The notes: generated from the sequence alone by a model not told the origin. 64,000 bases of DNA from Candidatus Magasanikiibacteriota bacterium (GCA_041666265.1 JBAYHH010000001.1:8056-72055), one strand, 5' to 3'; counted from the first letter of the stretch, positions 6,886 to 46,225 are shown. A program made the numbers and translations.

Positions 6886-8226
6886 TTAGTAATTTAATTT
6901 CCAGACGCCGTCGCTATCACCATATTTCCCACTGAAATATAAAATATGATTGACGCTATCGGCCTCAAAAGAACGCACCGCAGATTTAATGAGTTCGTCG
7001 GTTACCAAATAATACGGAAAAAGAGCGGTGGTATTTTTATTCCAAGATAATGCCAGAGTGTTGTATTTATCCAATGGGACAACTTGTTTTAGGCCTTCAC
7101 CCGAGCGATTTAAAAGCATCGGCTCGCCCCCTTCGCTGTAAGTGATCAATTCCCATGGCGTCCAAAATAGCCACCAGTTATTATATGGTGAAATTAAATA
7201 ATCATTGGCCGCGATTTTGTATGTTCCTTGCGGAGCGACCAGATACATGAGCGATTGACTGGCGTTTTTTAGTAAAATTTGTCCGCGCGCTCCCGTCACT
7301 ATGGAAAGATTGTTAAAATCGGCCGGCAACACTTCGGTATCAATGATGGAGAGGTCGGATGCAAATCCGGCGGTGTCTTTTACGATGCGCAAATTTTGTG
7401 TGTTCGAAGCGGTTTGCATCGTCCAGAGTGCTCCGCCCTCCATATACCAATCTACATACTTATTAGTTGCCACCCGCGCGCTATTACCGGTGATCGGATT
7501 GAGTGAACGAATTTCCTTTTCAGTGGAATAATATATTATACCGGAGTCATCATCAGACCATTGTATTTTGGTGATCGGCGCGCTCTCTGTCGTTAAATCG
7601 ATTTTTTTGGAAAAATTGTCAGCATCAATAATCATCGCCGTATCAAATGGCGCGACCTTGTCAGTGATCAATAGTCGATGACCTTTTTTTGACCACGCTA
7701 CTGCCAATGATTCGGTTTTTTTGTCGGAAAAAATTTTCGTCATCGAATTATTTTGAGTGTTAAAAATCATCACCTGGCGGCCATTCACTCCGGCAAGAAG
7801 CGCGCTGTCAGATGATAAATACAGATCATCGACAGTCGTCGTAGTAATAATTTGCGGATTATTTTTTTTCAAAAGTCCGATTTCTTTGATATAAACCGTT
7901 TGTTTATTTTGAACCTCGATGTCTTTGTTCCAATCATAATATCCGGACGCGGAAATTTTGAGATGATATTTGCGCGGAGTGATGTTGTTGAGGCGAATGG
8001 GCATGCCGGATTTGATTTCCACCCCGCCCAAATTGGCGTTAGCGTCGATCGGCTCGACATCGATGCTCACGGCTCCAATCTCGCGTCGGCGGCCATTTTG
8101 CCAATCATAGCGATAGCCTTGAGTATACATGACGATGAGCGGCGAAATGATAAAAAAAGAGGCGATGAATAGGCCTAAAATCGCTCGCCGAATCGGACGG
8201 GTTAATCTGGTATTGGGATATTCCAT
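6886..8226 (-). CDS. membrane-anchored protein with PEGA-like domain and beta-propeller-like repeats (TolB-like)
   Basis: ORF 6886..8361; the upstream extension overlaps the heptad array, so the start at MEYPNT (8224-8226) is preferred. TM segment, PEGA-like stretch (KYHLKISASGYYDW), repetitive beta-rich C-terminus. Confidence 0.5.
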   Translation of the reverse strand: MEYPNTRLTRPIRRAILGLFIASFFIISPLIVMYTQGYRYDWQNGRRREIGAVSIDVEPIDANANLGGVEIKSGMPIRLNNITPRKYHLKISASGYYDWNKDIEVQNKQTVYIKEIGLLKKNNPQIITTTTVDDLYLSSDSALLAGVNGRQVMIFNTQNNSMTKIFSDKKTESLAVAWSKKGHRLLITDKVAPFDTAMIIDADNFSKKIDLTTESAPITKIQWSDDDSGIIYYSTEKEIRSLNPITGNSARVATNKYVDWYMEGGALWTMQTASNTQNLRIVKDTAGFASDLSIIDTEVLPADFNNLSIVTGARGQILLKNASQSLMYLVAPQGTYKIAANDYLISPYNNWWLFWTPWELITYSEGGEPMLLNRSGEGLKQVVPLDKYNTLALSWNKNTTALFPYYLVTDELIKSAVRSFEADSVNHILYFSGKYGDSDGVWKLNY

Positions 8227-13923: not shown

Positions 13924-15546
13924 ATGCGAACCAAATATATATTTGTAATTGGCGGGGTGCTATCGGGCGTAGGCAAGGGTATCACTACCGCGTCCATCGG
14001 GCGGATTTTTAAAAATTACGGTTTTAATGTTTCAGCAATTAAGATCGATCCCTATATCAATGTCGATGCCGGCACGATGAATCCGGTCGAGCATGGCGAA
14101 GTTTTTGTCACCGAAGATGGCGACGAGACCGATCAGGACATGGGCAACTACGAACGCTTTTTGGATACCGATCTTTTTTCCACCAATTACATGACTACCG
14201 GTCGGGTATATCAAAGTGTCATCGAAAAAGAGCGCAGTATGTTTTACAAGGGTCATTGCGTGCAAGTCGTGCCCCACATTCCTTTTGAGGTGATCGAGCG
14301 CATCGAGACCGCGGCCAAAAAAACCAAAGCCGAAGTGATGGTGATCGAGATTGGCGGGACCGTGGGCGAGTATGAAAATATTTTGTATCTCGAGGCGGCC
14401 CGCATGATGAAGCTTGACCACCCCGATGATGTGGCGATCGTGCTCGTGGGATATATGCCGGTGCCGTCCCATCTCGGCGAGATGAAGACCAAGCCGACCC
14501 AGCACGCGGCCCGCACACTAAATAATTCCGGTTTGCAGGCCGACATCATCGTGGCGCGCGGGAAATACGCGCTCGATAAACCGCGCAAAGAAAAGCTGGC
14601 GCTATTTTGCTGGATGAAACCGGAAAATATTGTTTCAGCTCCGGATGTGGAGAGTATTTACGAGTTACCGGCCGTGCTCGAAAAACAAAATATTTCCAAG
14701 TTACTCGCGAAATTATTGAAGATTAAATTACCAGAAAAAAAATCTACCGAGTGGGATAAATTTGCCACCAAAGTGAGCGCGGTCCACAAGAAATTGAAAA
14801 TCGCGGTGGTGGGTAAATATTTCGCCACCGGTGATTTCACCTTGGCGGATTCATATATTTCCGTGATTCAAGCGGTCAAGCACGCGGCTATTTGGAATGG
14901 CGCCGATGCCGAGATGACCTGGATCGACAGCGAAGGATTTGAAAAAGATCCGGCCAGCGTCAAGGATTTGAAAAATTACGACGGTCTCATCGTGCCGGGC
15001 GGGTTTGGCACGCGCGGGATCGAGGGGATCATCAATGCGATTCGTTTCGCCCGCGAAAACAATGTGCCGTATTTGGGGCTGTGTTATGGCATGCAGCTCG
15101 CGTGTATCGAATTGGCGCGCAATGTGCTCGGGATCAAAGACGCGCACACGGTGGAGTGCGATCCGGGGACCAAAAATCCGATCATCCACATCAATCCGAT
15201 GCAGGCCAAAAATGTGGCGAGCAATCGTTATGGCGGGACCATGCGCCTCGGCGCCTATGATTGCGAGCTCAAAAAGGGGAGCAAGGTGCGCGCGCTTTAT
15301 GGCAGTGACCATATCAGCGAGCGTCATCGTCATCGTTATGAGTTTAACAATGACTTTCGCGAACAAATCGAAAATGCGGGGTTGGAATTTGTCGGCGTGA
15401 ACAAAGAAAAAAATCTAATGGAAGTGATCGAGCTCAAAAATCATCCGTATTTTGTCGGTTCTCAATTTCATCCGGAATTTAAATCTCGTCCGCTCCACCC
15501 GCATCCTCTATTTGTCGGGCTGATCAAGGCGGGGTTAAAAAAATAA
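13924..15546 (+). CDS. pyrG: CTP synthase
   Basis: N-terminal synthase domain (IFVIGGVLSGVGKGI) and C-terminal GATase with catalytic Cys in GLCYGMQ. 540 aa. Confidence 0.96.
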   Translation: MRTKYIFVIGGVLSGVGKGITTASIGRIFKNYGFNVSAIKIDPYINVDAGTMNPVEHGEVFVTEDGDETDQDMGNYERFLDTDLFSTNYMTTGRVYQSVIEKERSMFYKGHCVQVVPHIPFEVIERIETAAKKTKAEVMVIEIGGTVGEYENILYLEAARMMKLDHPDDVAIVLVGYMPVPSHLGEMKTKPTQHAARTLNNSGLQADIIVARGKYALDKPRKEKLALFCWMKPENIVSAPDVESIYELPAVLEKQNISKLLAKLLKIKLPEKKSTEWDKFATKVSAVHKKLKIAVVGKYFATGDFTLADSYISVIQAVKHAAIWNGADAEMTWIDSEGFEKDPASVKDLKNYDGLIVPGGFGTRGIEGIINAIRFARENNVPYLGLCYGMQLACIELARNVLGIKDAHTVECDPGTKNPIIHINPMQAKNVASNRYGGTMRLGAYDCELKKGSKVRALYGSDHISERHRHRYEFNNDFREQIENAGLEFVGVNKEKNLMEVIELKNHPYFVGSQFHPEFKSRPLHPHPLFVGLIKAGLKK

Positions 15547-16133: not shown

Positions 16134-16646
16134 TTAAAATTGTAAAGTTTTTTTGACTTCCTTCAATATAATCAAATCCCGTTTTTGAATAAAACTACCT
16201 TCGTAATTCGCTGGTTCATCTGACGCCAATATGCTTATAGCTTTATTTAAAGTCACCCAGATTATTTTAAATCCATCGCTTAATTCTTTTTTAGTAAAAT
16301 TAGGCTGACCTTTAGAAATAATATTTCCAGAATAACAGAACGATGTTTGTTTGAGGTTAAACTGCGATCGGTATTCAATGATTTTGCCTAATTCTTGCAG
16401 TGCATCAATTTTACAACCAACTTCTTCCATCGATTCTCTTTTTAGAGCATTAATTTTTGATTCATGTTTTTTAATACCCCCCCCTGGCAATTTGTGATAA
16501 TTATATCTTGAAACAAACAAAAGCGGTATCAAATTATTATCAAATAATACCGCTCTTGCGGCTTTGCGGACATTCATCTTTGGCATGTTCTTATTTCTAT
16601 CTTTGTCACTAATCTCGGATAATAATTTCATAAAATTTCGAATCAA
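16134..16646 (-). CDS. NUDIX hydrolase
   Basis: Nudix box GGGIKKHESKINALKRESMEEVGCKI. Confidence 0.75.
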   Translation of the reverse strand: MIRNFMKLLSEISDKDRNKNMPKMNVRKAARAVLFDNNLIPLLFVSRYNYHKLPGGGIKKHESKINALKRESMEEVGCKIDALQELGKIIEYRSQFNLKQTSFCYSGNIISKGQPNFTKKELSDGFKIIWVTLNKAISILASDEPANYEGSFIQKRDLIILKEVKKTLQF

Positions 16647-38414: not shown

Positions 38415-39404
38415 ATGGATATGATCAAAAAAGCCATATTGACCGGCGGGGGGCGCGCCACGCGCTTGCGGCCGATCACCAATACAATCAATAAACACCT
38501 GATTCCGTTGGCTAATAAGCCGATGATTTTTCATGCTATCGAAAAAGTGGCTCGGGCCGGGGTTACTGAGATTTTTATCAATACCAATCCAGGTGAAACC
38601 GAATTACAAAAAATAATCGGTAATGGCGATCGCTTCGGGGTGAAAATATCATTTTTTGAGCAAGTGGGCGGACCGCAGGGGATCGCTCATGTCGTCAAGC
38701 TCGCGCAAAAATTCATCGGCGATGATCCGTTCATGTTTTATTTATCCGATAATATTATTTTGGCCGAGCTAAATAAGCTCGTGGACAAATTTACCACTGG
38801 TAATTTCGACTGTCTGCTCGCGCTGTCGCAAGTAAAAGACCCGGAACGGTTTGGTGTGCCGATTTTCAATGCCAAGGGCGAACTCATCGAGGTGCAAGAA
38901 AAACCGACTAACCCGCCCAATAATTTCGCCGTCACCGGTATATATTTGTATGGCCCGAAATTATTTTTTGAAGCTTTTGATCATATTGCGAAATCTGCGC
39001 GCGGCGAATACGAAATTTCCGATATCCATTCGTATTTTTTGAAGACCGGTCGTAAGGTGGGTCACGAAGAAATCACCGGCTGGTGGAAAGATACCGGCAA
39101 AGTCGAGGATCTGATTTTGGCCAATAAACTTTTGATGGATTTGTGTGGGATAAAATTCGAGATTGGACAAAATGTGAAGCGGATCGGCAGTGTGAAGATT
39201 GTCGAGCCGGTATGCGTGGGCGATGATTGCGTTTTAGAAAATTGCGCGATCGGTCCATATACGGCGATCGGAAAAAACAGCGTAATAAAAAATACGCGCT
39301 TATCGAACGCGATCGTATTTGAAGAATGCATCGTTGAATCCCCGGTGGAAATTGACCAAATAGTCATTAGTCGCGACTCGACGATGAGTGCGAAAATTGT
39401 CTAA
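38415..39404 (+). CDS. sugar-phosphate nucleotidyltransferase with C-terminal left-handed beta-helix
   Basis: AILTGGGRATRLRPITNTINKHLIPLANKPMIF N-terminus (G1P nucleotidyltransferase signature). Hexapeptide repeats C-terminally. Confidence 0.85.
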   Translation: MDMIKKAILTGGGRATRLRPITNTINKHLIPLANKPMIFHAIEKVARAGVTEIFINTNPGETELQKIIGNGDRFGVKISFFEQVGGPQGIAHVVKLAQKFIGDDPFMFYLSDNIILAELNKLVDKFTTGNFDCLLALSQVKDPERFGVPIFNAKGELIEVQEKPTNPPNNFAVTGIYLYGPKLFFEAFDHIAKSARGEYEISDIHSYFLKTGRKVGHEEITGWWKDTGKVEDLILANKLLMDLCGIKFEIGQNVKRIGSVKIVEPVCVGDDCVLENCAIGPYTAIGKNSVIKNTRLSNAIVFEECIVESPVEIDQIVISRDSTMSAKIV

Positions 39405-40613: not shown

Positions 40614-40646
40614 AATTTAATTATTTGTGTGATAATCGTATTATAT

Positions 40647-40686
40647 ACAAAACAACGCTATGTTACAAGCGTTGTTTTGTTGGTCG
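40647..40686 (+). repeat. direct repeat A (attL/attR-like; partial tRNA-Pro 3' end plus downstream hairpin)
   Basis: ACAAAACAACGCTATGTTACAAGCGTTGTTTTGTTGGTCG, identical to 46115..46154. Confidence 0.9.
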
Positions 40687-40741
40687 AACATCCTAAACGA
40701 TGTTAGAACTTTTTTTGAAAAAAATTATTAAGGGCTATTGT

Positions 40742-40830
40742 GTAGGGACTTCGCCCCTACAACCCCTGCCTACCGGTAGGCAGGCCACGAAAATGGGGCG
40801 GGCAAAAAGGCGCCGCCGTTCTCATTTTTA
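40742..40830 (+). promoter_or_regulatory. cluster of three GC-rich hairpins at the island left end (possible attP remnant, structured leader or terminator cluster)
   Basis: GTAGGG-ACTTCGC-CCCTAC (40742-40760). Perfect 20-bp palindrome CCTGCCTACCGGTAGGCAGG (40765-40784). GGCGG-GCAAAAAGGCG-CCGCC followed by a T-run. Confidence 0.4.
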
Positions 40831-40892
40831 CTCTTGTGGATAACTTTTGATATTTTTCTAAATTTATCTTATATTAGCCAAATTATCACTAC

Positions 40893-40921
40893 TTGACATA
40901 GACCAAATAGTCATATAATAT
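40893..40921 (+). promoter_or_regulatory. candidate promoter of the lexA-like / R-M operon
   Basis: TTGACA at 40893-40898 with TATAAT/TAATAT at 40913-40921, 8-16 nt upstream of ATG 40929. Confidence 0.45.
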
Positions 40922-40928
40922 AGAATAT

Positions 40929-41576
40929 ATGGCTAAAACTATCACCAAAAGACAACTTGATGCACTAAATTTGATATATCAGAATACCAAGAGCTCTGGT
41001 TTTCCGCCTAGTATGGCAGAAATGCGCGACGCACTTAGTGTAGCATCAAATCAATCAATAATCAACCTATTGAAGGCTTTGGAGGAAAAAGGTTGTATAA
41101 AACGCGAAGAAGGGCTTGCGCGTGGATTAAAAATTTTACCAAAAGGATTCAGTGTCCTCGGCGTTGACCCGATAGTTCCGGTCGTAGGGCAGAGTTCGTG
41201 CGGTCCGTTTATTGAGGCCACGCAAGAAATTGGCAACTGGACTGTGTTGCCGGGCATAACCAACGAAGTACAAGAATCGCAGGACAAAATTTTTGCCATT
41301 CAGGTGTGTGGCGATAGTATGATTAACGCCGGCATTTATGATGGGGATATGTTATTGGTAAAACAGACACGCGAATTTAAAAATGGTGATATTGTAGTCG
41401 CTCGTAGCGATGACGGCACCACCGTTAAAAGATTCGTTGCAGAAAATAAACGCGCTTATCTAAAGCCGGAAAATCCGGCCTACAAAAATATTCCAATTTT
41501 TGAAGAAACATATTTTGATGGCAAAGTAATTGCCAATTTAAGTACTTTAAAAAGAATGTATGAACCAAAAAATTAA
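40929..41576 (+). CDS. lexA: LexA-type repressor (winged-HTH + S24 peptidase)
   Basis: N-terminus collinear with the LexA DNA-binding domain (LTKRQLDALNLIYQNTKSSGFPPSMAEMRDALSV...LLKALEEKGCIKR). S24 catalytic Ser (VCGDSMINAGIYDGDMLLV) and Lys (TTVKRF). The putative cleavage site is Cys-Gly (VGQSSCGPF), as in UmuD. Confidence 0.85.
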   Translation: MAKTITKRQLDALNLIYQNTKSSGFPPSMAEMRDALSVASNQSIINLLKALEEKGCIKREEGLARGLKILPKGFSVLGVDPIVPVVGQSSCGPFIEATQEIGNWTVLPGITNEVQESQDKIFAIQVCGDSMINAGIYDGDMLLVKQTREFKNGDIVVARSDDGTTVKRFVAENKRAYLKPENPAYKNIPIFEETYFDGKVIANLSTLKRMYEPKN

Positions 41577-43488
41577 CAGCGCGGTGCTAAATAAAATTTT
41601 TCACGATTCCGGCGCGCAATACGGCCTTAAAGAATTTGAAAATGTCAAACCGGTGGAGGTTTTGGATATTTTTGAGAAAGAAAAAGGCAAATTTTATATT
41701 AAATGTCTCAAGCGCGACAAAGATATTTTATTGTTTAGCAACGAAAAGAATTTATCCAAGCCCGAGGAAGTTATTCGTCAATTATGGTTATTTAAATTGA
41801 CCAAATATTATAATTACCCGCTTGACCGGATTGATTTGGAAAAAGATATTCGTTTTGGACATGAGATTCACGCTAAAGCGGCGGATATCATTATTTATCG
41901 TGAAGATAAAGAAACTCCGCTTATAATCATTGAAACCAAAAATCCGGCGGTAGAAAAGGGTTTAGATCAATTAAAAACCTATATCAATTCCGAAGGCGCG
42001 CCTATCGGCGTGTGGAGCAATGGCGTGGAAAAAGTCGTTTTGTACCGCCCTTATCCGCGCGAATTCCAAACTTTACGCGATTTACCACGCGTAGATCAAA
42101 CAATTGACGATGTCTTGGAGGAAAAATTAACCCTTGACGATTTACACAAAGATTATGATTTGGTAAAAATTCTCAAAATTTTAGAGGAACTTGTTTTGGC
42201 CAGCGCGGGTGTAGATTCGTTTAATGAAATTTTTAAACTCATTTACGCCAAGTTATTTGACGAAAAAGAGGCGCGCAAACGAAAAGATAATGAATTGTAT
42301 TTCCGACAGTCCAAAGATCCAAAAATTACTCTTGATGTTATTAATAAACTTTTTCAGAGCGCCTGCCAAGAGTGGCCAGGGATATTTAGTAGTTATGAAA
42401 AAATAGAACTTACGCCCAATCACCTCGCTGTTTGTGTGGATGAATTTTCAAAAATAAGATTATTGGACGCTAATTTGGAAGTAATTGATGCCGCCTTTGA
42501 ATATTTATTACCTGATGTCGCCAAGGGCAAACGCGGGCAATATTTCACTCCGCGCCATGTGATAGATATGGCGGTAAAAATGCTCAATCCCAAGGACGGT
42601 GAATATATTATTGATCCGGCATGTGGGAGCGGTGGATTTCTTATTCACGCCATGCGTTATGTTTGGAACAACAACTTAAAACACGCTGACAAACAAGCCA
42701 AAACAGATTATGCCCGCAAATATATCTATGGAATTGATTTTGATGATAAACCGGTAAAAATCGCCCGCGCCATGATGCTTATTGCTGGTGACGGTAAATC
42801 ACACATCTTGAAATTGAATTCGCTTAACACCAAAGAGTGGCAGGGTGATGAAAGCGAAAAAGAACGCGCGCGCGCCGAATTGCGCGATCGATTACACAAA
42901 TTTGATGATTACGACAAAGACAAAAATAATAAAGATAACTTTAAATATTTTGACTTTGATATTTTATTATCAAACCCACCCTTTGCTGGCGAGATTCACG
43001 AAACCCCACTACTCAAAGAATACGAACTGGCAAAAAACGACAAAGGCAAGTTGCGTAATAAAATGGAGCGACACATTTTGTTTATTGAACGCTCGCTTGA
43101 TTTGGTAAAACCAGGTGGGCGTATGGCGATTGTTTTACCGCAGGGCGTGTTTAATAATAGCAACATGGAATATGTGCGCGATTACTTATTGGACAAAGCA
43201 CGTATTTTGGCAGTCGTTGGATTAGAAGTAAACACATTCAAACCGCACACCGGCACCAAGACCAGTGTAATATTTTTACAAAAATGGGGCGCAAAAGAAA
43301 ACAAACCAAAGGATTATCCTATTTTTATGGCCGTTTCCAAAAAATCAGGCAAGGATAATTCCGGCGATTATGTTTATCGCAAGGACAAAGAAGGCAGTTT
43401 GATGTTTGATGAGCAGGGGAAAAAAATATTGGAGCATGATTTGGATGAAATTGCGGAGGAGTATTTGAAATTTACAGAAAAAATATGA
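41560..43488 (+). CDS. BcgI-A-like bifunctional restriction endonuclease / N6-adenine DNA methyltransferase
   Basis: N-terminal HSDR_N-type PD-(D/E)xK motif (AADIIIY...PLIIIETK...LDQLKTY). Gamma-class N6-MTase motifs (DPACGSGGFL, NPPF). 642 aa, comparable to BcgI A subunit. Start overlaps the lexA-like gene by 17 nt. Confidence 0.8.
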   Translation: MNQKINSAVLNKIFHDSGAQYGLKEFENVKPVEVLDIFEKEKGKFYIKCLKRDKDILLFSNEKNLSKPEEVIRQLWLFKLTKYYNYPLDRIDLEKDIRFGHEIHAKAADIIIYREDKETPLIIIETKNPAVEKGLDQLKTYINSEGAPIGVWSNGVEKVVLYRPYPREFQTLRDLPRVDQTIDDVLEEKLTLDDLHKDYDLVKILKILEELVLASAGVDSFNEIFKLIYAKLFDEKEARKRKDNELYFRQSKDPKITLDVINKLFQSACQEWPGIFSSYEKIELTPNHLAVCVDEFSKIRLLDANLEVIDAAFEYLLPDVAKGKRGQYFTPRHVIDMAVKMLNPKDGEYIIDPACGSGGFLIHAMRYVWNNNLKHADKQAKTDYARKYIYGIDFDDKPVKIARAMMLIAGDGKSHILKLNSLNTKEWQGDESEKERARAELRDRLHKFDDYDKDKNNKDNFKYFDFDILLSNPPFAGEIHETPLLKEYELAKNDKGKLRNKMERHILFIERSLDLVKPGGRMAIVLPQGVFNNSNMEYVRDYLLDKARILAVVGLEVNTFKPHTGTKTSVIFLQKWGAKENKPKDYPIFMAVSKKSGKDNSGDYVYRKDKEGSLMFDEQGKKILEHDLDEIAEEYLKFTEKI

Positions 43489-44342
43489 CATTAGCAGATT
43501 TATTAACCGAAAGGATTAATGAGACCGGATTTCCTTTCCAGGAGGAATGCTACCAATTTATTAAAGATACAAAAAATTTTGTTACAAAAGAATATCCATA
43601 TTCGTTTATCGGAGTTGATGGTTCGGTAGATATTTTGACTTTAAAGATTCCGCCCCTTGATGATTTTGGCGATTCTTTTTGGCCAATCATGTCTATTGAA
43701 TGTAAAAAAAGTAAACCCGGTATTAAAAATTGGTGCTTTATTAAGACGGATAGAGGTGGTTATGGAACAAAACCATTATTTGTGGTTTCAATAGTAAGCG
43801 CGGAAAGTGAAGCAAAATTATCATTTTCATCTGAATTATACTCATTTGATAGATTGAAATTTTTTAACGACAAAATGGTAACAATTGATGAAGTTGTAAA
43901 TTTTGGGTTTGAAAGCAACATACTTGCGGAATCTCTTAATAGAAATCAGGAAGAAAAAATTTATAAGTCGCTACTTCAAAGCGTAAGCGGTATTACTTAT
44001 GTTGAGAAAAAAAAGTTTCCCAATATACCGGAGCTGCGGCTGAATGAAGACAAAATTAATGGATTAAGTCGTAGGACACTTCCGCCGTCATACCCGACAA
44101 TTATTTTTATACCAATAGTGTTGACCACATCGGACTTATATGTGGCTAATTTTAATCCTAATAATGTTAAAGACGGTGAAATTGATAATGGAAGTGTCAC
44201 CTGGGTTCAGAAGAATTGGGTTTTTTATGATTTTGGTTTGCCTGATTATCTGCAACAAGATGAACTGGTTTACAGAGGCGTATTTATTGTCAACAATAAA
44301 CATTTTCCGGTATTTTATAATACATTGATGCCATCATTTTAA
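43485..44342 (+). CDS. hypothetical protein, possible PD-(D/E)xK nuclease-fold accessory protein
   Basis: 285 aa, ATGA-overlapped with the MTase gene. Candidate motif GVDGSVDILTL...IMSIECKKSK. No other homology recognisable by eye. Confidence 0.45.
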   Translation: MTLADLLTERINETGFPFQEECYQFIKDTKNFVTKEYPYSFIGVDGSVDILTLKIPPLDDFGDSFWPIMSIECKKSKPGIKNWCFIKTDRGGYGTKPLFVVSIVSAESEAKLSFSSELYSFDRLKFFNDKMVTIDEVVNFGFESNILAESLNRNQEEKIYKSLLQSVSGITYVEKKKFPNIPELRLNEDKINGLSRRTLPPSYPTIIFIPIVLTTSDLYVANFNPNNVKDGEIDNGSVTWVQKNWVFYDFGLPDYLQQDELVYRGVFIVNNKHFPVFYNTLMPSF

Positions 44343-44345
44343 TTT

Positions 44346-45722
44346 ATGGTTTTTTCAATAATACAAAAGTCCCAACTTGAGGGCGCACAACGATTAGATG
44401 CTGAATATTATCAGCCAGAGTATTTAAAATTGGAGAGTAATTTGGGAAAAAATAATTTATCCCTAAAATTTTTTAGTGATATTTTAGAAAAGGAGAATTC
44501 TTTGACCGGAGGTGCCACTCCATTGGGCGCAGACTACCCAAGTAGTGGAGTTAGATTTTTGCGTGTACAAAATATTATGCAAGGATTTTTAGATTTTGAT
44601 GATGTTGTATTTATCTCTCAGCAAACAAATGATAATCAGTTAAAACGATCTCAATTAGTGGACAGTGATGTGTTATTAACCATCACTGGTGTTTCTTATG
44701 GCAAATCGGCGGTGTATAAAAAATCTTGTGGCCCATGTAATATTAATCAACATTCTGTTAGAATGCGTTTTATTGAAAAAATTTTACCTGAATATGTTGC
44801 TACTTTTTTAAATTCAAAATATGGTAGATTTCAATCGGATAGAAAAATTACAGGTGACACCCGACCAGCGCTAGCATACGAAGAAATTAAAAATTATTTA
44901 ATTCCAATATTTGACATTGAGCAACAAAAAAATATTCAAAAAATTTATACTAAAGCGAATAATTTATTGGATGAATCAGAGAATATATATAAAAACGCTT
45001 TAGATATTTTTTTAAGCGAAACAAATGTAAATTGGTTTAGTGAGAATAAAATTTATTATTCCGTTGTTAATTTATTCGAAGTACAAACCGTCAATCGTTT
45101 TGACGCAGAATATTTTAATTCCCCGTGCAATAAAATTCTAACGCAGATTATTAAAGGCAAAACCGCCAAATTAGGCGACCTGGCGGACATGACAAAAGGT
45201 GTTGAGCCTGGGGCCGACGCGTATCAAGATGAAGGAAAATTATTTATCCGCGTTAGTAGTATTTCCAAAGATGGCATAATAGATAAAGACCAAAAATATT
45301 TGAGTGATGATTTGTATAATGAATATAAAAAAGATTACCAACCACAGGTTGGTGATGTACTTTTGACAAAAGATGCTTCGATAGGCGTTGCTTGTGTGGT
45401 ACGAGAGTCGGTTGAAGGAATTGTGGCTGGTGGAGTTTTACGATTAAAATTAAAGGAAAAGATGAATCCGGAATATTTGGCTTTAGTGTTAAATTCTATC
45501 GTTGGTCAAATGCAGGCCAAACGAGACGCCGGTGGCTCTATTATCGCTCACTGGAAACCAGAACAAATAAAAAATTTAGTAGTTCCAATTTTGCCTGCCG
45601 CAACTCAAGAAAAAATCGCGGGCTTGATCGTTAAATCGCACGAAGCCCGTAAAAAAGCGAAGAGGTTACTTGAAGAGGCAAAATTAAAGGTCGAGGAAAT
45701 GATAGAAAAAGGAGGTAGATAA
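44346..45722 (+). CDS. restriction-modification specificity subunit (HsdS/BcgI-B-like) with two target-recognition domains
   Basis: Duplicated TRD framing motifs (RLDAEYYQPEY and RFDAEYFNSP). Conserved central and C-terminal helices. Confidence 0.85.
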   Translation: MVFSIIQKSQLEGAQRLDAEYYQPEYLKLESNLGKNNLSLKFFSDILEKENSLTGGATPLGADYPSSGVRFLRVQNIMQGFLDFDDVVFISQQTNDNQLKRSQLVDSDVLLTITGVSYGKSAVYKKSCGPCNINQHSVRMRFIEKILPEYVATFLNSKYGRFQSDRKITGDTRPALAYEEIKNYLIPIFDIEQQKNIQKIYTKANNLLDESENIYKNALDIFLSETNVNWFSENKIYYSVVNLFEVQTVNRFDAEYFNSPCNKILTQIIKGKTAKLGDLADMTKGVEPGADAYQDEGKLFIRVSSISKDGIIDKDQKYLSDDLYNEYKKDYQPQVGDVLLTKDASIGVACVVRESVEGIVAGGVLRLKLKEKMNPEYLALVLNSIVGQMQAKRDAGGSIIAHWKPEQIKNLVVPILPAATQEKIAGLIVKSHEARKKAKRLLEEAKLKVEEMIEKGGR

Positions 45723-46114
45723 TAATAATAATTTTATGTCGTGGATAAAAGTAAAGGATCCAAATTTTTTCCCAAGGTTACCGAGCTTACCGCGATTACC
45801 TCGGTTGCCAAGTTTGCCGAAAATACCAAAAATCCCATCAATCAGACCGATAAAGCCAATAGCACCATTGGGTTATAAGTATGTTTGGCGTGAACCCAAA
45901 TAATTTGAAGTAGGTAGAGCGAGCGGGATGGAGGAGTGCCAAGATCCGAGGAGGTTGGTAATTACGAAAGCCCAACCCAACCGCGACCGAAATAATTGTT
46001 TCCAAAACCTCGCTAAAAAGTGGGGTTTTGTTTTCTAAAATTGGGAGCACCATTTGCCCGCCCGATTAATAATTTTTTTAAAAAAGGTTCGAGCTTCGTT
46101 CAGTAATTACGACA

Positions 46115-46154
46115 ACAAAACAACGCTATGTTACAAGCGTTGTTTTGTTGGTCG
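46115..46154 (+). repeat. direct repeat B (overlaps the 3' terminus of tRNA-Pro)
   Basis: Identical 40-mer. 46149..46154 are the tRNA 3' end (CGACCA on the minus strand). Confidence 0.9.
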
Positions 46155-46225
46155 GGGTGCCGGGACTTGAACCCGGAATCTCGTGAACCCGAATCACGCG
46201 CCTTAGCCAATTGGGCCACACCCCG
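46149..46225 (-). tRNA. tRNA-Pro (anticodon CGG), CCA encoded
   Basis: Manual cloverleaf. Acceptor CGGGGTG/CACCCCG. U8. D-arm GCCC/GGC with loop containing GG. Anticodon stem CGTGA/TCACG with loop TTCGGGT. T-arm CCGGG-TTCAAGT-CCCGG. Discriminator A then CCA. Confidence 0.85.

What the first reader, a model, noticed from the sequence alone, without database searches (positions are those of the whole stretch)
40647..46154. tRNA-Pro-associated island carrying a LexA-type repressor coupled to a helicase-less BcgI-like R-M module
A perfect 40-mer (ACAAAACAACGCTATGTTACAAGCGTTGTTTTGTTGGTCG) occurs twice in direct orientation, 5.4 kb apart. The right copy comprises the last 6 nt of tRNA-Pro(CGG) and its downstream hairpin. 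That is the classic footprint of site-specific integration at a tRNA 3' end. The enclosed segment is AT-rich relative to its flanks and encodes a LexA-type repressor gene and a 642-aa protein that fuses an HSDR_N-type PD-(D/E)xK nuclease domain to an N6-adenine MTase (BcgI-A-like). It also encodes an unknown 285-aa protein and a two-TRD specificity subunit. The four genes are translationally coupled (17-nt, 4-nt and 3-nt junctions). There is no HsdR helicase/translocase and no integrase in the island. Together this suggests an immobilised defence island whose R-M activity may be wired to the SOS response via an island-encoded LexA. In a reduced genome this could be the only LexA.
Basis: partly seen in the sequence, partly recalled or inferred. 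Interest (0 to 1): 0.85.

Follow-up and report, generated by a model that had tools for sequence, protein, structure and literature searches.

The report
Mobile lexA-led restriction-modification operon at tRNA-Pro
A 5.4-kb cassette whose first gene is the DNA-damage repressor LexA, followed by a restriction-modification (R-M) enzyme set, was inserted beside a proline tRNA gene of a Candidatus Magasanikbacteria genome, and lexA turned out to head R-M operons of several unrelated kinds across this phylum, an arrangement I found no paper describing.

Summary
A perfect 40-mer occurs twice, at 40647-40686 and 46115-46154. The right copy is the terminator hairpin plus the last 6 nt of tRNA-Pro(CGG). 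A collinear sister genome (L093) has the empty site: GT4, one hairpin, tRNA-Pro. So 40687-46154 is a real insertion with a 40-bp target duplication.

The cassette has the lowest GC of the window. Its synonymous divergence from relatives is 3-5 times lower than that of the host backbone, so it was exchanged horizontally, lexA included.

It is one operon:
- a canonical LexA, behind a promoter carrying a GAC-N6-GTC palindrome;
- a Type IIB-like (BsaXI/BcgI-like) nuclease-methyltransferase with an intact E/D/ExK motif;
- a previously unassigned PD-(D/E)xK nuclease (the "unknown" 285-aa protein);
- a two-TRD specificity subunit.

No helicase or integrase is present.

The main new result is that 15 of 20 Patescibacterial lexA loci examined have an R-M system directly downstream. 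These belong to at least four unrelated kinds, and one locus has LexA fused to a methyltransferase. None of 49 non-Patescibacterial loci showed this.

SOS-coupled control of restriction is therefore well supported by comparison but not by experiment. How the cassette moves is unresolved.

The parts
40647..40686 (+). Left copy of the 40-bp target duplication: 13-8-13 hairpin plus TGGTCG.
   Evidence: Its left flank (gtattatat) matches the empty site in L093.
40681..40735 (+). Left 'arm': outer end of a dispersed repeat family (TGTCGAAnATCCTGAACGAnGTnnGAAC followed by a T/A run). It is inverted relative to the right arm.
   Evidence: I4; 44 of 62 aligned columns identical to the reverse complement of the right arm. 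The same arms occur in L008, L011, L099 and L101-L115.
40722..40810 (+). GC-rich 89-nt inner part of the repeat unit, containing the GGGCGGGCAAA motif.
   Evidence: 90% identical to L008 6260-6348, which lies next to that element's left arm.
40835..40843 (-). Perfect DnaA box (TTATCCACA) upstream of the lexA promoter.
   Evidence: A DnaA box or near-box is present upstream of lexA in most Patescibacterial loci examined.
40893..40921 (+). lexA operon promoter TTGACA-17-TAATAT. A palindromic operator, AGACCAAATAGTCA (GAC-N6-GTC, 40898-40915), lies between the -35 and -10 elements.
   Evidence: position-weight-matrix score 16.4. The same architecture is seen in L004, L006, L008, L011, L013, L016, L017, L019, L020, L021 and L097.
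40929..41576 (+). lexA (215 aa): LexA-type winged-helix DNA-binding domain plus S24 peptidase. Predicted cleavage site is Cys91-Gly92, with Ser130 and Lys167 as the catalytic pair.
   Evidence: Pfam; NCBIfam TIGR00498 scores 153.6 against a cut-off of 110.95; alignment to solved LexA structures.
41560..43488 (+). RM subunit (642 aa): N-terminal PD-(D/E)xK nuclease (E70, D109, E125-x-K127) fused to an N6-adenine methyltransferase (DPACGSGGF and NPPF motifs).
   Evidence: PADLOC PDLC03034, 613 bits; residues invariant in 8 relatives; best PDB hit RM.BsaXI, E=2.8e-27.
43485..44342 (+). X (285 aa): stand-alone PD-(D/E)xK nuclease with no Pfam family, occupying the variable slot between RM and S.
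44346..45722 (+). Specificity subunit S (458 aa) with two target-recognition domains.
   Evidence: The target-recognition domains diverge (52-60% identity) while RM stays at 95-98%.
45736..45903 (+). Small proline-rich ORF (55 aa). Coding status is uncertain.
   Evidence: The ORF is preserved in L008 but replaced by other small ORFs in L011, L013 and L099.
45905..46042 (+). Conserved non-coding tail ending in the operon terminator (46003-46030).
   Evidence: Conserved in L008, L011 and L099. No covariation and no Rfam match.
46061..46114 (-). Right arm, the inverted copy of the left arm, abutting the hairpin.
   Evidence: The homologous arm abuts the tRNA-Pro(TGG) hairpin in L008 and a tRNA-Pro(CGG) hairpin in L106.
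46115..46154 (+). Right copy of the 40-bp duplication: the tRNA-Pro terminator hairpin plus the last 6 nt of the tRNA.
46149..46225 (-). tRNA-Pro(CGG), the insertion target.
   Evidence: It is retained at the empty site in L093.
39351..39368 (+). Second LexA-operator-like site (ATTGACCAAATAGTCATT). It lies outside the cassette, inside the 3' end of the NTP-transferase gene.
   Evidence: This is the best matrix score in the window (18.4), and 14 of 14 bases match the promoter operator. Function is unknown.

Best explanation
The repeat-bounded segment (40687-46154) is a horizontally exchanged cassette. It was inserted at the terminator hairpin of tRNA-Pro(CGG), duplicating 40 bp of target.

It carries one operon, lexA-RM-X-S:
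- The first gene is the phylum's canonical LexA. It is predicted to repress its own sigma-70 promoter through a GAC-N6-GTC palindrome lying between the -35 and -10 elements.
- RM plus S form a helicase-free, Type IIB-like (BsaXI/BcgI-like) enzyme. The S subunit reads a bipartite site. The RM subunit either methylates adenine or cuts with its N-terminal PD-(D/E)xK domain.
- X is an extra PD-(D/E)xK nuclease in a slot that holds unrelated accessory genes in relatives.

All four genes overlap or abut, and the only convincing terminator follows S. Restriction-modification expression is therefore tied to LexA. It should be low and self-limiting at rest. It should be derepressed when RecA-stimulated LexA self-cleavage occurs, for example on DNA damage or on incoming or replicating foreign DNA.

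Shown: the anatomy, domains and catalytic motifs, the empty site, the excess similarity of the cassette, and the phylum-wide lexA-R-M linkage. Inferred: operator binding, co-transcription, SOS induction, the cleavage pattern, and how the cassette moved.
For: Insertion.
- Sister genome L093 is collinear on both sides. It has GT4, one hairpin and tRNA-Pro(CGG) within 176 nt, with the same outer flanks.
- The lexA-RM cassette of what is probably that same genome sits at tRNA-Pro(TGG) instead. It comes from the same two samples, and the NCBI accessions lie within about 900 of each other.
- L013 has tRNA-Pro(GGG) just after S.

Horizontal exchange.
- Synonymous divergence (dS) of the cassette is 0.46 (lexA) and 0.60 (RM). 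The backbone is at 1.5 to saturated.
- LexA is 92% and RM 98% identical to the relative, against 44-82% for flanking proteins.
- The cassette has the lowest GC of the window.

Operon.
- Gene coordinates show the overlaps.
- The promoter and the single strong terminator are placed as expected for one transcript.
- The operator is conserved in at least 11 loci.

Proteins.
- LexA scores above the equivalog cut-off and has the Ser/Lys pair and a Cys-Gly site.
- RM has an invariant E/D/ExK motif and its best PDB hit is BsaXI. The equivalent four residues are essential in BsaXI (PMC11997821).
- RM+S modules without HsdR occur on a Klebsiella plasmid, and a single-chain RMS fusion occurs in Picosynechococcus.
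- X has a nuclease fold and motif.

Linkage.
- lexA is followed by HSDR_N_2-N6_Mtase plus S in 11 distinct loci.
- It is followed by other R-M kinds in L014, L017 and L019, and is fused to a methyltransferase in L021.
- No such family appeared among the 25 of 34 listed families for 84 downstream ORFs from 49 non-Patescibacterial loci.
Against: - No experiment supports any of this. LexA binding, self-cleavage, co-transcription and restriction activity are all inferred.
- No recombinase or transposase lies in the cassette, and none was found in other arm-bounded elements, so the insertion mechanism is unknown.
- L011 carries the operon at the same tRNA without the repeat, and L008 has no flanking direct repeat. 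The 40-bp duplication is therefore not a constant feature of the family.
- The high similarity of the cassette could be partly due to strong constraint, although dS argues against that.
- Weak internal promoter-like matches exist.
- Whether the genome has another lexA, and whether this LexA controls a wider SOS regulon, could not be checked. Only two strong operator matches exist in the 64 kb.
- Five Patescibacterial lexA loci, mostly Saccharibacteria, lack R-M downstream.
Confidence: 0.7

Rival explanations
1. The segment is a classic integrase-mediated genomic island, integrated at the 3' end of tRNA-Pro. Its integrase gene was later lost, or acts in trans. The 13-8-13 hairpin would serve as a lox/FRT-like core site shared by attP and attB.
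For: - Direct repeats overlap the tRNA 3' end, and the empty site holds one copy.
- The hairpin has a 13-8-13 layout.
- Cassettes lie next to three different tRNA-Pro genes.
- Inverted arms lie directly inside both repeats.
Against: - No integrase lies in this cassette, in L008, or in any other arm-bounded element sampled.
- Only 6 nt of the tRNA are included.
- L008 and L011 have no flanking repeat.
- The hairpin sequence differs between target sites, which is hard to reconcile with a sequence-specific core.
- The case meets the criteria for integrase-free R-M insertion with long target duplication.
Confidence: 0.2
2. The LexA-like protein is a cassette-specific controller, a functional analogue of R-M C proteins or of prophage CI/SetR repressors. 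On this reading it is not the cell's SOS repressor, and the genome has another lexA.
For: - It travels with the cassette and shares its low dS.
- It always sits first in the operon.
- It is fused to a methyltransferase in L021.
- A LexA-DBD+HTH_3 regulator heads another R-M unit in L007.
- Only two strong operator matches exist in 64 kb.
Against: - It scores above the LexA equivalog cut-off.
- Hundreds of 57-92% identical orthologues are annotated as LexA across the phylum.
- No second lexA lies in the 64-kb window.
- The one complete genome in the survey (L016, CP011210) appears once in the list.
- The two roles are not mutually exclusive.
Confidence: 0.3
3. The unit is an incomplete Type I system (HsdM+HsdS) that works only as a methylase, or with an HsdR encoded elsewhere. 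The N-terminal HSDR_N_2 domain would be a non-catalytic remnant, and X would be the real or only nuclease.
For: - PADLOC labels the best-matching model a 'Type I methyltransferase'.
- S is of Type I length with two TRDs.
- X is a stand-alone nuclease that also occurs in a different R-M unit (L007).
Against: - E70, D109, E125 and K127 are invariant down to 57% identity and match the essential BsaXI tetrad.
- No HsdR lies in any of 11 loci or beside the Klebsiella homologue.
- L011 and L013 lack any slot gene yet keep RM+S.
- The best PDB hit is a Type IIB enzyme.
Confidence: 0.12
4. Nothing is mobile here. The operon was inherited vertically at this tRNA, the 40-mer arose by local duplication of a terminator, and the sister genome lost or moved the operon by deletion between the repeats.
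For: - L011 has the operon at the same tRNA and in the same neighbourhood without the repeat.
- Deletion between direct repeats would leave exactly one copy.
Against: - Cassette dS is 3-5 times lower than backbone dS.
- The GC content is distinct.
- The cassette sits at another tRNA-Pro, bounded by 136-nt inverted repeats, in what is probably the sister genome.
- Flanks differ in every other locus.
Confidence: 0.08

Closest known systems
Type IIB restriction-modification enzymes with separate RM and S subunits (BcgI, BsaXI)
   Same: - A bifunctional polypeptide with an N-terminal PD-(D/E)xK nuclease and an N6-adenine methyltransferase.
- A separate Type I-like S subunit with two TRDs.
- No ATPase or translocase.
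- The catalytic E...D...ExK tetrad is conserved.
- The best solved relative by sequence is RM.BsaXI.
   Different: - RM is shorter (642 aa against 916 aa) and so probably lacks the BsaXI C-terminal extension that carries the paddle (inferred from length only).
- S is 458 aa, against 341 aa for BcgI B.
- An extra stand-alone nuclease lies between RM and S.
- The operon is headed by lexA.
- Cleavage on both sides of the site is untested.
LexA / SOS autoregulation
   Same: - Domain pair, Ser/Lys dyad and cleavage site.
- Score above the equivalog cut-off.
- A palindromic operator inside its own promoter.
   Different: - The operator is GAC-N6-GTC. From my own knowledge it is neither the E. coli CTGT-N8-ACAG box nor the Gram-positive GAAC-N4-GTTC box.
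- The cleavage site is Cys-Gly, as in UmuD.
- The gene is co-operonic with R-M genes and moves with them.
- The regulon is unknown.
C-protein (controller) regulated R-M systems
   Same: A small DNA-binding regulator is encoded first in the R-M operon. It acts on its own promoter and sets the level and timing of R and M expression. This is a functional analogy.
   Different: C proteins are Xre-type HTH proteins of roughly 80-100 aa with no peptidase domain and no link to RecA (my own knowledge). Here the regulator is a full LexA, which could sense DNA damage.
Insertion of R-M units with long target duplication (Nobusato 2000; Furuta, Abe & Kobayashi 2010, PMC2853133)
   Same: - The insert holds R and M functions and is under 20 kb.
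- The target duplication exceeds 30 bp.
- One copy of the target is present at the empty site of a related genome.
- No mobility genes are present.
   Different: - The target is a tRNA terminator hairpin.
- The unit is additionally bounded by inverted copies of a dispersed repeat.
- It carries lexA.
S24-repressor-controlled mobile elements (lambda CI, SXT SetR)
   Same: A self-cleaving S24 repressor is carried on a horizontally moving element, which ties the element's genes to the host's RecA signal. This is my own knowledge and an analogy only.
   Different: Here the repressor is an equivalog-level LexA, and the cargo is an R-M system rather than phage or conjugation functions. No excision or transfer genes are present.
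MADS (methylation-associated defence system) Mad2/Mad5
   Same: RM and S give partial matches to the Mad2 and Mad5 models.
   Different: Scores are far below the cut-offs (323 against 720, and 149 against 400). None of the other mad genes is in the cassette.

Membership tests
LexA (NCBIfam TIGR00498 equivalog) | N-terminal LexA winged-helix domain plus C-terminal S24 peptidase, scoring above the curated cut-off. | tested here: met
   PF01726 E=7.5e-16 and PF00717 E=4.1e-26. TIGR00498 scores 153.6 bits against a cut-off of 110.95.
LexA (NCBIfam TIGR00498 equivalog) | Ser/Lys catalytic dyad and an Ala/Cys-Gly self-cleavage site. | tested here: met
   Alignment to E. coli LexA places Cys91-Gly92 at A84-G85, Ser130 at S119 and Lys167 at K156. 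Ser130 and Lys167 are invariant in 17 relatives.
LexA (NCBIfam TIGR00498 equivalog) | Palindromic operator in its own promoter (autoregulation). | tested here: met
   A GAC-N6-GTC palindrome lies between -35 and -10 and is conserved in at least 11 loci. Binding itself was not tested.
LexA (NCBIfam TIGR00498 equivalog) | RecA-dependent cleavage and control of a DNA-damage regulon. | not testable with these tools
   Only two strong operator matches exist in the 64 kb.
Type IIB R-M (BcgI/BsaXI type, RM + S) | One polypeptide with an N-terminal PD-(D/E)xK nuclease and an N6-adenine methyltransferase. | tested here: met
   HSDR_N_2 E=1e-20 and N6_Mtase E=7.7e-41. E70, D109, E125 and K127 are invariant. 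The best PDB hit is RM.BsaXI.
Type IIB R-M (BcgI/BsaXI type, RM + S) | Separate S subunit with two TRDs. | tested here: met
   Methylase_S matches in two stretches. PADLOC Specificity_I matches full length.
Type IIB R-M (BcgI/BsaXI type, RM + S) | No ATP-dependent translocase. | tested here: met
   No helicase or ATPase domain lies in the cassette, and no HsdR lies in 11 related loci.
Type IIB R-M (BcgI/BsaXI type, RM + S) | Cuts both strands on both sides of a bipartite site. | not testable with these tools
   Requires enzyme assays.
Type I R-M | HsdR subunit with a helicase/translocase motor. | tested here: not met
   Absent from the cassette, from all related loci, and from the Klebsiella plasmid homologue.
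MADS defence system | Mad2 and Mad5 above the equivalog cut-offs, together with the other mad genes. | tested here: not met
   Scores are 323 against 720 and 149 against 400 bits. The slot protein X has no PADLOC hit.
Integrase-mediated tRNA-targeting island | Tyrosine or serine recombinase gene in the element. | tested here: not met
   No such domain was found in any ORF between the repeats.
Integrase-mediated tRNA-targeting island | Direct repeats that include the tRNA 3' end, with one copy at an empty site. | tested here: met
   However, only 6 nt belong to the tRNA.
R-M insertion with long target duplication (Furuta 2010 criteria) | R and M in the insert, insert under 20 kb, duplication over 30 bp, single target copy in a related genome, and no mobility genes. 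| tested here: met
   The insert is 5.4 kb and the duplication 40 bp. The empty site is in L093. The criteria were read.
C-protein controlled R-M | Small Xre-type HTH controller protein. | tested here: not met
   The regulator is a 215-aa LexA with an S24 domain.

The most novel reading that the evidence does not exclude
In much of the Patescibacteria, LexA may have become the standard, damage-sensing controller of restriction-modification. On this reading restriction is an SOS-inducible function, and lexA plus its R-M cargo behave as one selfish, horizontally moving unit that targets tRNA-Pro terminators. A RecA signal raised by incoming or replicating foreign DNA, or by self-restriction, would cleave LexA and raise nuclease and methylase output. 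R-M systems of unrelated types have repeatedly been recruited behind lexA, and in one case fused to it.
Probability: 0.35. Interest if true: 0.85.

Novelty: new variant of a known kind. Interest (0 to 1): 0.72.

Why it matters
R-M systems are thought to need tight control of the nuclease-to-methylase balance. The known solutions are C proteins, promoter methylation and antisense RNA. A full LexA as the first gene of R-M operons would be a different solution, because it links restriction to the cell's DNA-damage signal.

The arrangement recurs with at least four unrelated R-M kinds, includes one LexA-methyltransferase fusion, and is absent from 49 control loci in other phyla. This suggests a rule for a very large, mostly uncultured and CRISPR-poor lineage that is believed to rely heavily on R-M (my own knowledge).

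It also shows a core regulator, lexA, being exchanged horizontally together with a defence cassette. That matters for using lexA as a marker and for ideas about how selfish R-M units secure their retention.

Finally, the extra PD-(D/E)xK nuclease next to a Type IIB enzyme bears on the open question raised in the BsaXI study (PMC11997821): how one nuclease domain can cut both strands.

Tried and rejected
Searches that found nothing.
- The 40-mer and the 34-nt hairpin were searched in viral contigs and JGI metagenome contigs. No match was found, so it is neither a dispersed repeat nor phage-borne in those collections.
- Rfam at gathering and at permissive thresholds found only the tRNA. The conserved 3' tail shows no covariation.
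- X has no hit in Pfam, NCBIfam, PADLOC or PHROGs.
- Six paper searches for a described lexA-R-M link, of which one was a MADS look-up, found nothing relevant.

Ideas tested and dropped.
- MADS membership is rejected because the scores are far below the cut-offs.
- Flanking direct repeats were sought around the cassettes in L004, L006, L008 and L011. None was found.
- Short target-site duplications next to the long inverted repeats of L008 and L099 were sought by eye. None was seen, so a standard cut-and-paste transposon is not supported.
- The slot proteins of L008 and of the Klebsiella plasmid were compared with the X profile. There is no similarity, so the slot genes are unrelated.
- A transposase or integrase was sought inside other arm-bounded segments. 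Only defence-type cargo turned up.

Lead corrected. I first classed L014, L017, L019 and L021 as lexA loci without R-M, because they lack the RM homologue. Pfam then showed other R-M types there.

Lead left open. The GAAC-N7-GAAC motif in the arms resembles the alphaproteobacterial SOS box (my own knowledge). I did not pursue it for lack of a test.

Full report
**1.

The 40-mer ACAAAACAACGCTATGTTACAAGCGTTGTTTTGTTGGTCG occurs exactly twice in the window, in direct orientation, at 40647-40686 and 46115-46154. Shuffled sequence gives no match, and no further copy appears even with three mismatches.

tRNA-Pro(CGG) lies at 46149-46225 on the minus strand. The right copy therefore holds the last 6 nt of the tRNA (CGACCA, with CCA encoded) plus a 34-nt hairpin made of two perfect 13-nt arms and an 8-nt loop.

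The domains are also as stated: LexA_DNA_bind + Peptidase_S24; HSDR_N_2 + N6_Mtase; Methylase_S in two stretches; nothing for the 285-aa protein. GC is 0.371 inside against 0.459 outside, and this is the lowest 5.4-kb stretch of the window. The organism is a Candidatus Magasanikbacteria MAG, a member of the Patescibacteria/CPR.

**2. It is a real insertion**

The nearest relative of the flanking GT4 gene (81% identity) lies on contig L093. That contig is collinear with the window on both sides for more than 25 kb.

There the HD gene and GT4 are only 176 nt apart. Between them lie tRNA-Pro(CGG) and a single hairpin, ACAAAACAACGCT-GATTAACA-AGCGTTGTTTTAGT, followed by the GT4 start. The outer flank of the window's left repeat matches the GT4 side of this site. 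The outer flank of the right repeat is the tRNA.

The same two samples that hold L093 also hold L008. L008 carries lexA (92% identical), RM (98%), a 255-aa protein and S, and it sits next to tRNA-Pro(TGG)/tRNA-Leu. The NCBI accessions of the two proteins are about 900 apart, so they probably come from one MAG. The cassette thus occupies different tRNA-Pro genes in sister genomes.

A third relative, L013, has tRNA-Pro(GGG) about 250 nt after S. L011 is syntenic with the window and has the operon at tRNA-Pro(CGG) too, but without the repeat, GT4 or HD.

**3. The cassette, lexA included, is younger than the genomes it sits in**

| Comparison | Gene | dS (Nei-Gojobori) |
|---|---|---|
| window vs L008 (cassette) | lexA | 0.46 |
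| window vs L008 (cassette) | RM | 0.60 |
| window vs L093 (backbone) | GT4 | 1.53 |
| window vs L093 (backbone) | poly(A) polymerase-type gene | 1.73 |
| window vs L093 (backbone) | P-type ATPase | 2.28 |
| window vs L093 (backbone) | beta-CASP gene | 4.1 |
| window vs L093 (backbone) | T2SSE ATPase | saturated |

Protein identities tell the same story: 92-98% in the cassette against 44-82% in the flanks. Horizontal exchange of the unit after the hosts diverged is the simplest reading.

**4. How it moved is open**

No integrase or transposase is present. The event meets every criterion that Furuta et al. set for 'insertion of R-M with long target duplication': R and M in the insert, under 20 kb, a duplication over 30 bp, one target copy in the relative, and no mobility genes (PMC2853133).

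Directly inside both repeats lie inverted 'arms' at 40681-40735 and 46061-46114, with 44 of 62 aligned columns identical. These arms are the outer ends of a dispersed repeat of about 130-200 nt. The repeat consists of TGTCGAAAATCCTGAACGAyGTnnGAAC, then a T/A run, then a GC-rich part containing GGGCGGGCAAA. It is found in related genomes, usually right after a terminator hairpin.

Near-perfect inverted pairs bound two other elements:
- A 9.15-kb element in L008 (136 nt, 97% identical). It is the same cassette plus two extra genes.
- A 3.4-kb diversity-generating retroelement in L099 (173 nt, 98% identical).

Just inside other arms lie an EcoRI-type methylase with an AAA_15 ATPase, Fic with HsdM, an N4/N6 methylase, and radical-SAM/NYN genes. 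So the arms mark a family of non-autonomous, defence-carrying segments.

I saw no short target duplications at the L008 and L099 ends. A trans-acting recombinase using the 13-8-13 hairpin, or a break-and-repair route, both remain possible.

**5. The operon**

A TTGACA-17-TAATAT promoter lies at 40893-40921. It encloses the palindrome AGACCAAATAGTCA. The same layout, TTGAC, then GAC-N6-GTC, then TATAAT, precedes lexA in L004, L006, L008, L011, L013, L016, L017, L019, L020, L021 and L097.

The only strong same-strand terminator is at 46003-46030, after S and a small ORF.

LexA scores above the NCBIfam equivalog cut-off. Aligned to solved LexA structures, it has Ser130 and Lys167 and a Cys91-Gly92 site, as in UmuD.

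**6. The enzyme**

The N-terminal domain of RM keeps E70, D109 and E125-x-K127 in all eight relatives, down to 57% identity. Its best solved relative is RM.BsaXI, a Type IIB enzyme. In BsaXI the equivalent tetrad (E73, D90, E105, K107) is essential and conserved across Type IIB enzymes (PMC11997821).

Homologues on a Klebsiella plasmid come as RM + S + a small protein without HsdR. A Picosynechococcus homologue is a single-chain RMS fusion. No HsdR occurs in any of the 11 related loci. MADS membership fails on score.

The BcgI-like reading is therefore supported as far as sequence can take it.

**7. The 'unknown' protein X**

X occupies a slot between RM and S whose content varies between loci:

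| Locus | Slot content |
|---|---|
| window, L006 | X |
| L004 | 437-aa protein plus X |
| L008 | 255-aa protein, hydrophobic C-terminal region |
| L099 | 225-aa protein, hydrophobic C-terminal region |
| L097 | 159-aa and 102-aa proteins |
| L020 | 196-aa protein |
| L016 | OLD-family ATPase-TOPRIM nuclease |
| L011, L013 | nothing |

The slot proteins are unrelated to X. X also occurs in a different R-M unit, headed by a LexA-DBD+HTH_3 regulator (L007).

X is thus an accessory nuclease and is not required for the core RM+S.

**8. The wider rule**

Of 20 distinct Patescibacterial lexA loci examined, 15 have R-M genes directly downstream.
- Eleven have the HSDR_N_2-N6_Mtase RM: the window, L004, L006, L008, L011, L013, L015, L016, L020, L097 and L099. 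An S gene follows in ten of these; L015's contig is too short to tell.
- L014 has a different N6_Mtase followed by a 320-aa S.
- L017 has an unknown 252-aa protein followed by an N4/N6 methylase.
- L019 has an Eco57I-type methylase followed by a Tsp45I restriction enzyme.
- L021 has LexA, the S24 domain and an N4/N6 methylase in one 478-aa ORF, followed by an HNH nuclease.

The five loci without R-M are L018 and L022-L025. They are mostly Saccharibacteria, with a GAAC-type operator or none.

As a control, I took 84 same-strand ORFs within 2.6 kb downstream of lexA in 49 loci from other phyla. No methylase, S or restriction family appeared among the 25 of 34 matched families that were listed.

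RM identity tracks LexA identity across loci: 98/92, 95/92, 86/75, 81/59, 78/63, 61/44 and 57/45 per cent. This fits co-inheritance of the pair.

None of the literature searches retrieved a paper describing a lexA-R-M operon.

**9. Judgement**

The refinements are these:
- The insertion is of the integrase-free, long-target-duplication kind.
- It is bounded by a dispersed inverted repeat.
- The unknown gene is a nuclease.
- LexA is the phylum's canonical repressor and heads R-M operons as a rule.

SOS-coupled restriction is the best-supported mechanism but remains inferred.

The parts are known kinds. The conserved coupling and co-mobility of lexA with R-M is a new variant, and I score interest at 0.72.

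Noticed in passing
window 39351-39368: A second LexA-operator-like site (ATTGACCAAATAGTCATT) gives the best matrix score in the window, and 14 of 14 bases match the promoter operator. It lies inside the 3' end of the NTP-transferase gene, 1.5 kb from lexA and outside the cassette. It could be a functional site or a remnant of an earlier arrangement.
   Followed up: partly
window 40835-40843; upstream of lexA in L004, L006, L008, L011, L013, L014, L019, L021, L024, L025, L099: A perfect or near-perfect DnaA box (TTATCCACA) lies 50-90 nt upstream of the lexA -35 element in most Patescibacterial loci, in either orientation. The window has only three perfect boxes in total. This suggests DnaA input into the lexA/R-M operon.
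   Followed up: partly
L008 6137-6272 / 15150-15285; L099 13173-13345 / 16455-16627; L101-L115: A dispersed repeat of about 130-200 nt occurs as near-perfect inverted pairs that bound cargo. It consists of TGTCGAAAATCCTGAACGA..GAAC, a T/A run and a GC-rich part with GGGCGGGCAAA. One pair bounds the lexA-R-M cassette plus two genes, another bounds a diversity-generating retroelement, and single arms flank other methylase/defence genes. The arms usually follow a terminator hairpin. No transposase was seen.
   Followed up: partly
L021 10001-11437: One 478-aa ORF in a Paceibacterota MAG fuses LexA_DNA_bind, Peptidase_S24 and an N4/N6 DNA methyltransferase. An HNH nuclease gene follows. It is seen in one assembly only.
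   Followed up: partly
L016 12587-14332; L008 12567-13334; L099 10595-11272; L020 12597-13187; L097 10582-11542: The slot between RM and S holds unrelated genes in different genomes. L016 has an OLD-family AAA_15+TOPRIM nuclease. L008, L099 and L020 have small proteins with hydrophobic C-terminal regions. L011 and L013 have nothing. The slot looks like a hotspot for accessory defence genes.
   Followed up: partly
window 45736-46042; L013 14183-14332; L099 12653-12808: The region after S is as conserved as the genes (88% identity to L008). It holds a proline-rich 55-aa ORF here. L013 and L099 instead have a small ORF of about 50 aa with Cys-x-x-Cys pairs, a possible zinc ribbon. All end in a shared non-coding tail of about 130 nt with a terminator. 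There is no Rfam match and no covariation.
   Followed up: partly
window 40640-40668 (minus strand): The best promoter-like match for the GT4 gene has its -35 hexamer (TTGTAA) inside the loop of the left hairpin copy. The duplicated target may therefore also serve as the GT4 promoter.
   Followed up: no
L004 6607-7975 and 8877-8930: L004 has an extra 437-aa gene before X. A 54-nt stretch at 7922-7975 is 78% identical to the start of the S gene, which suggests past rearrangement or shuffling of specificity genes.
   Followed up: no
L007 1468-5131: A homologue of X lies in a different R-M-like unit. The order is a 134-aa LexA-DBD+HTH_3 regulator, an N4/N6 methylase, a 388-aa protein with a weak HSDR_N_2 match, and then X. 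This may point to X working alongside a second PD-(D/E)xK protein.
   Followed up: no
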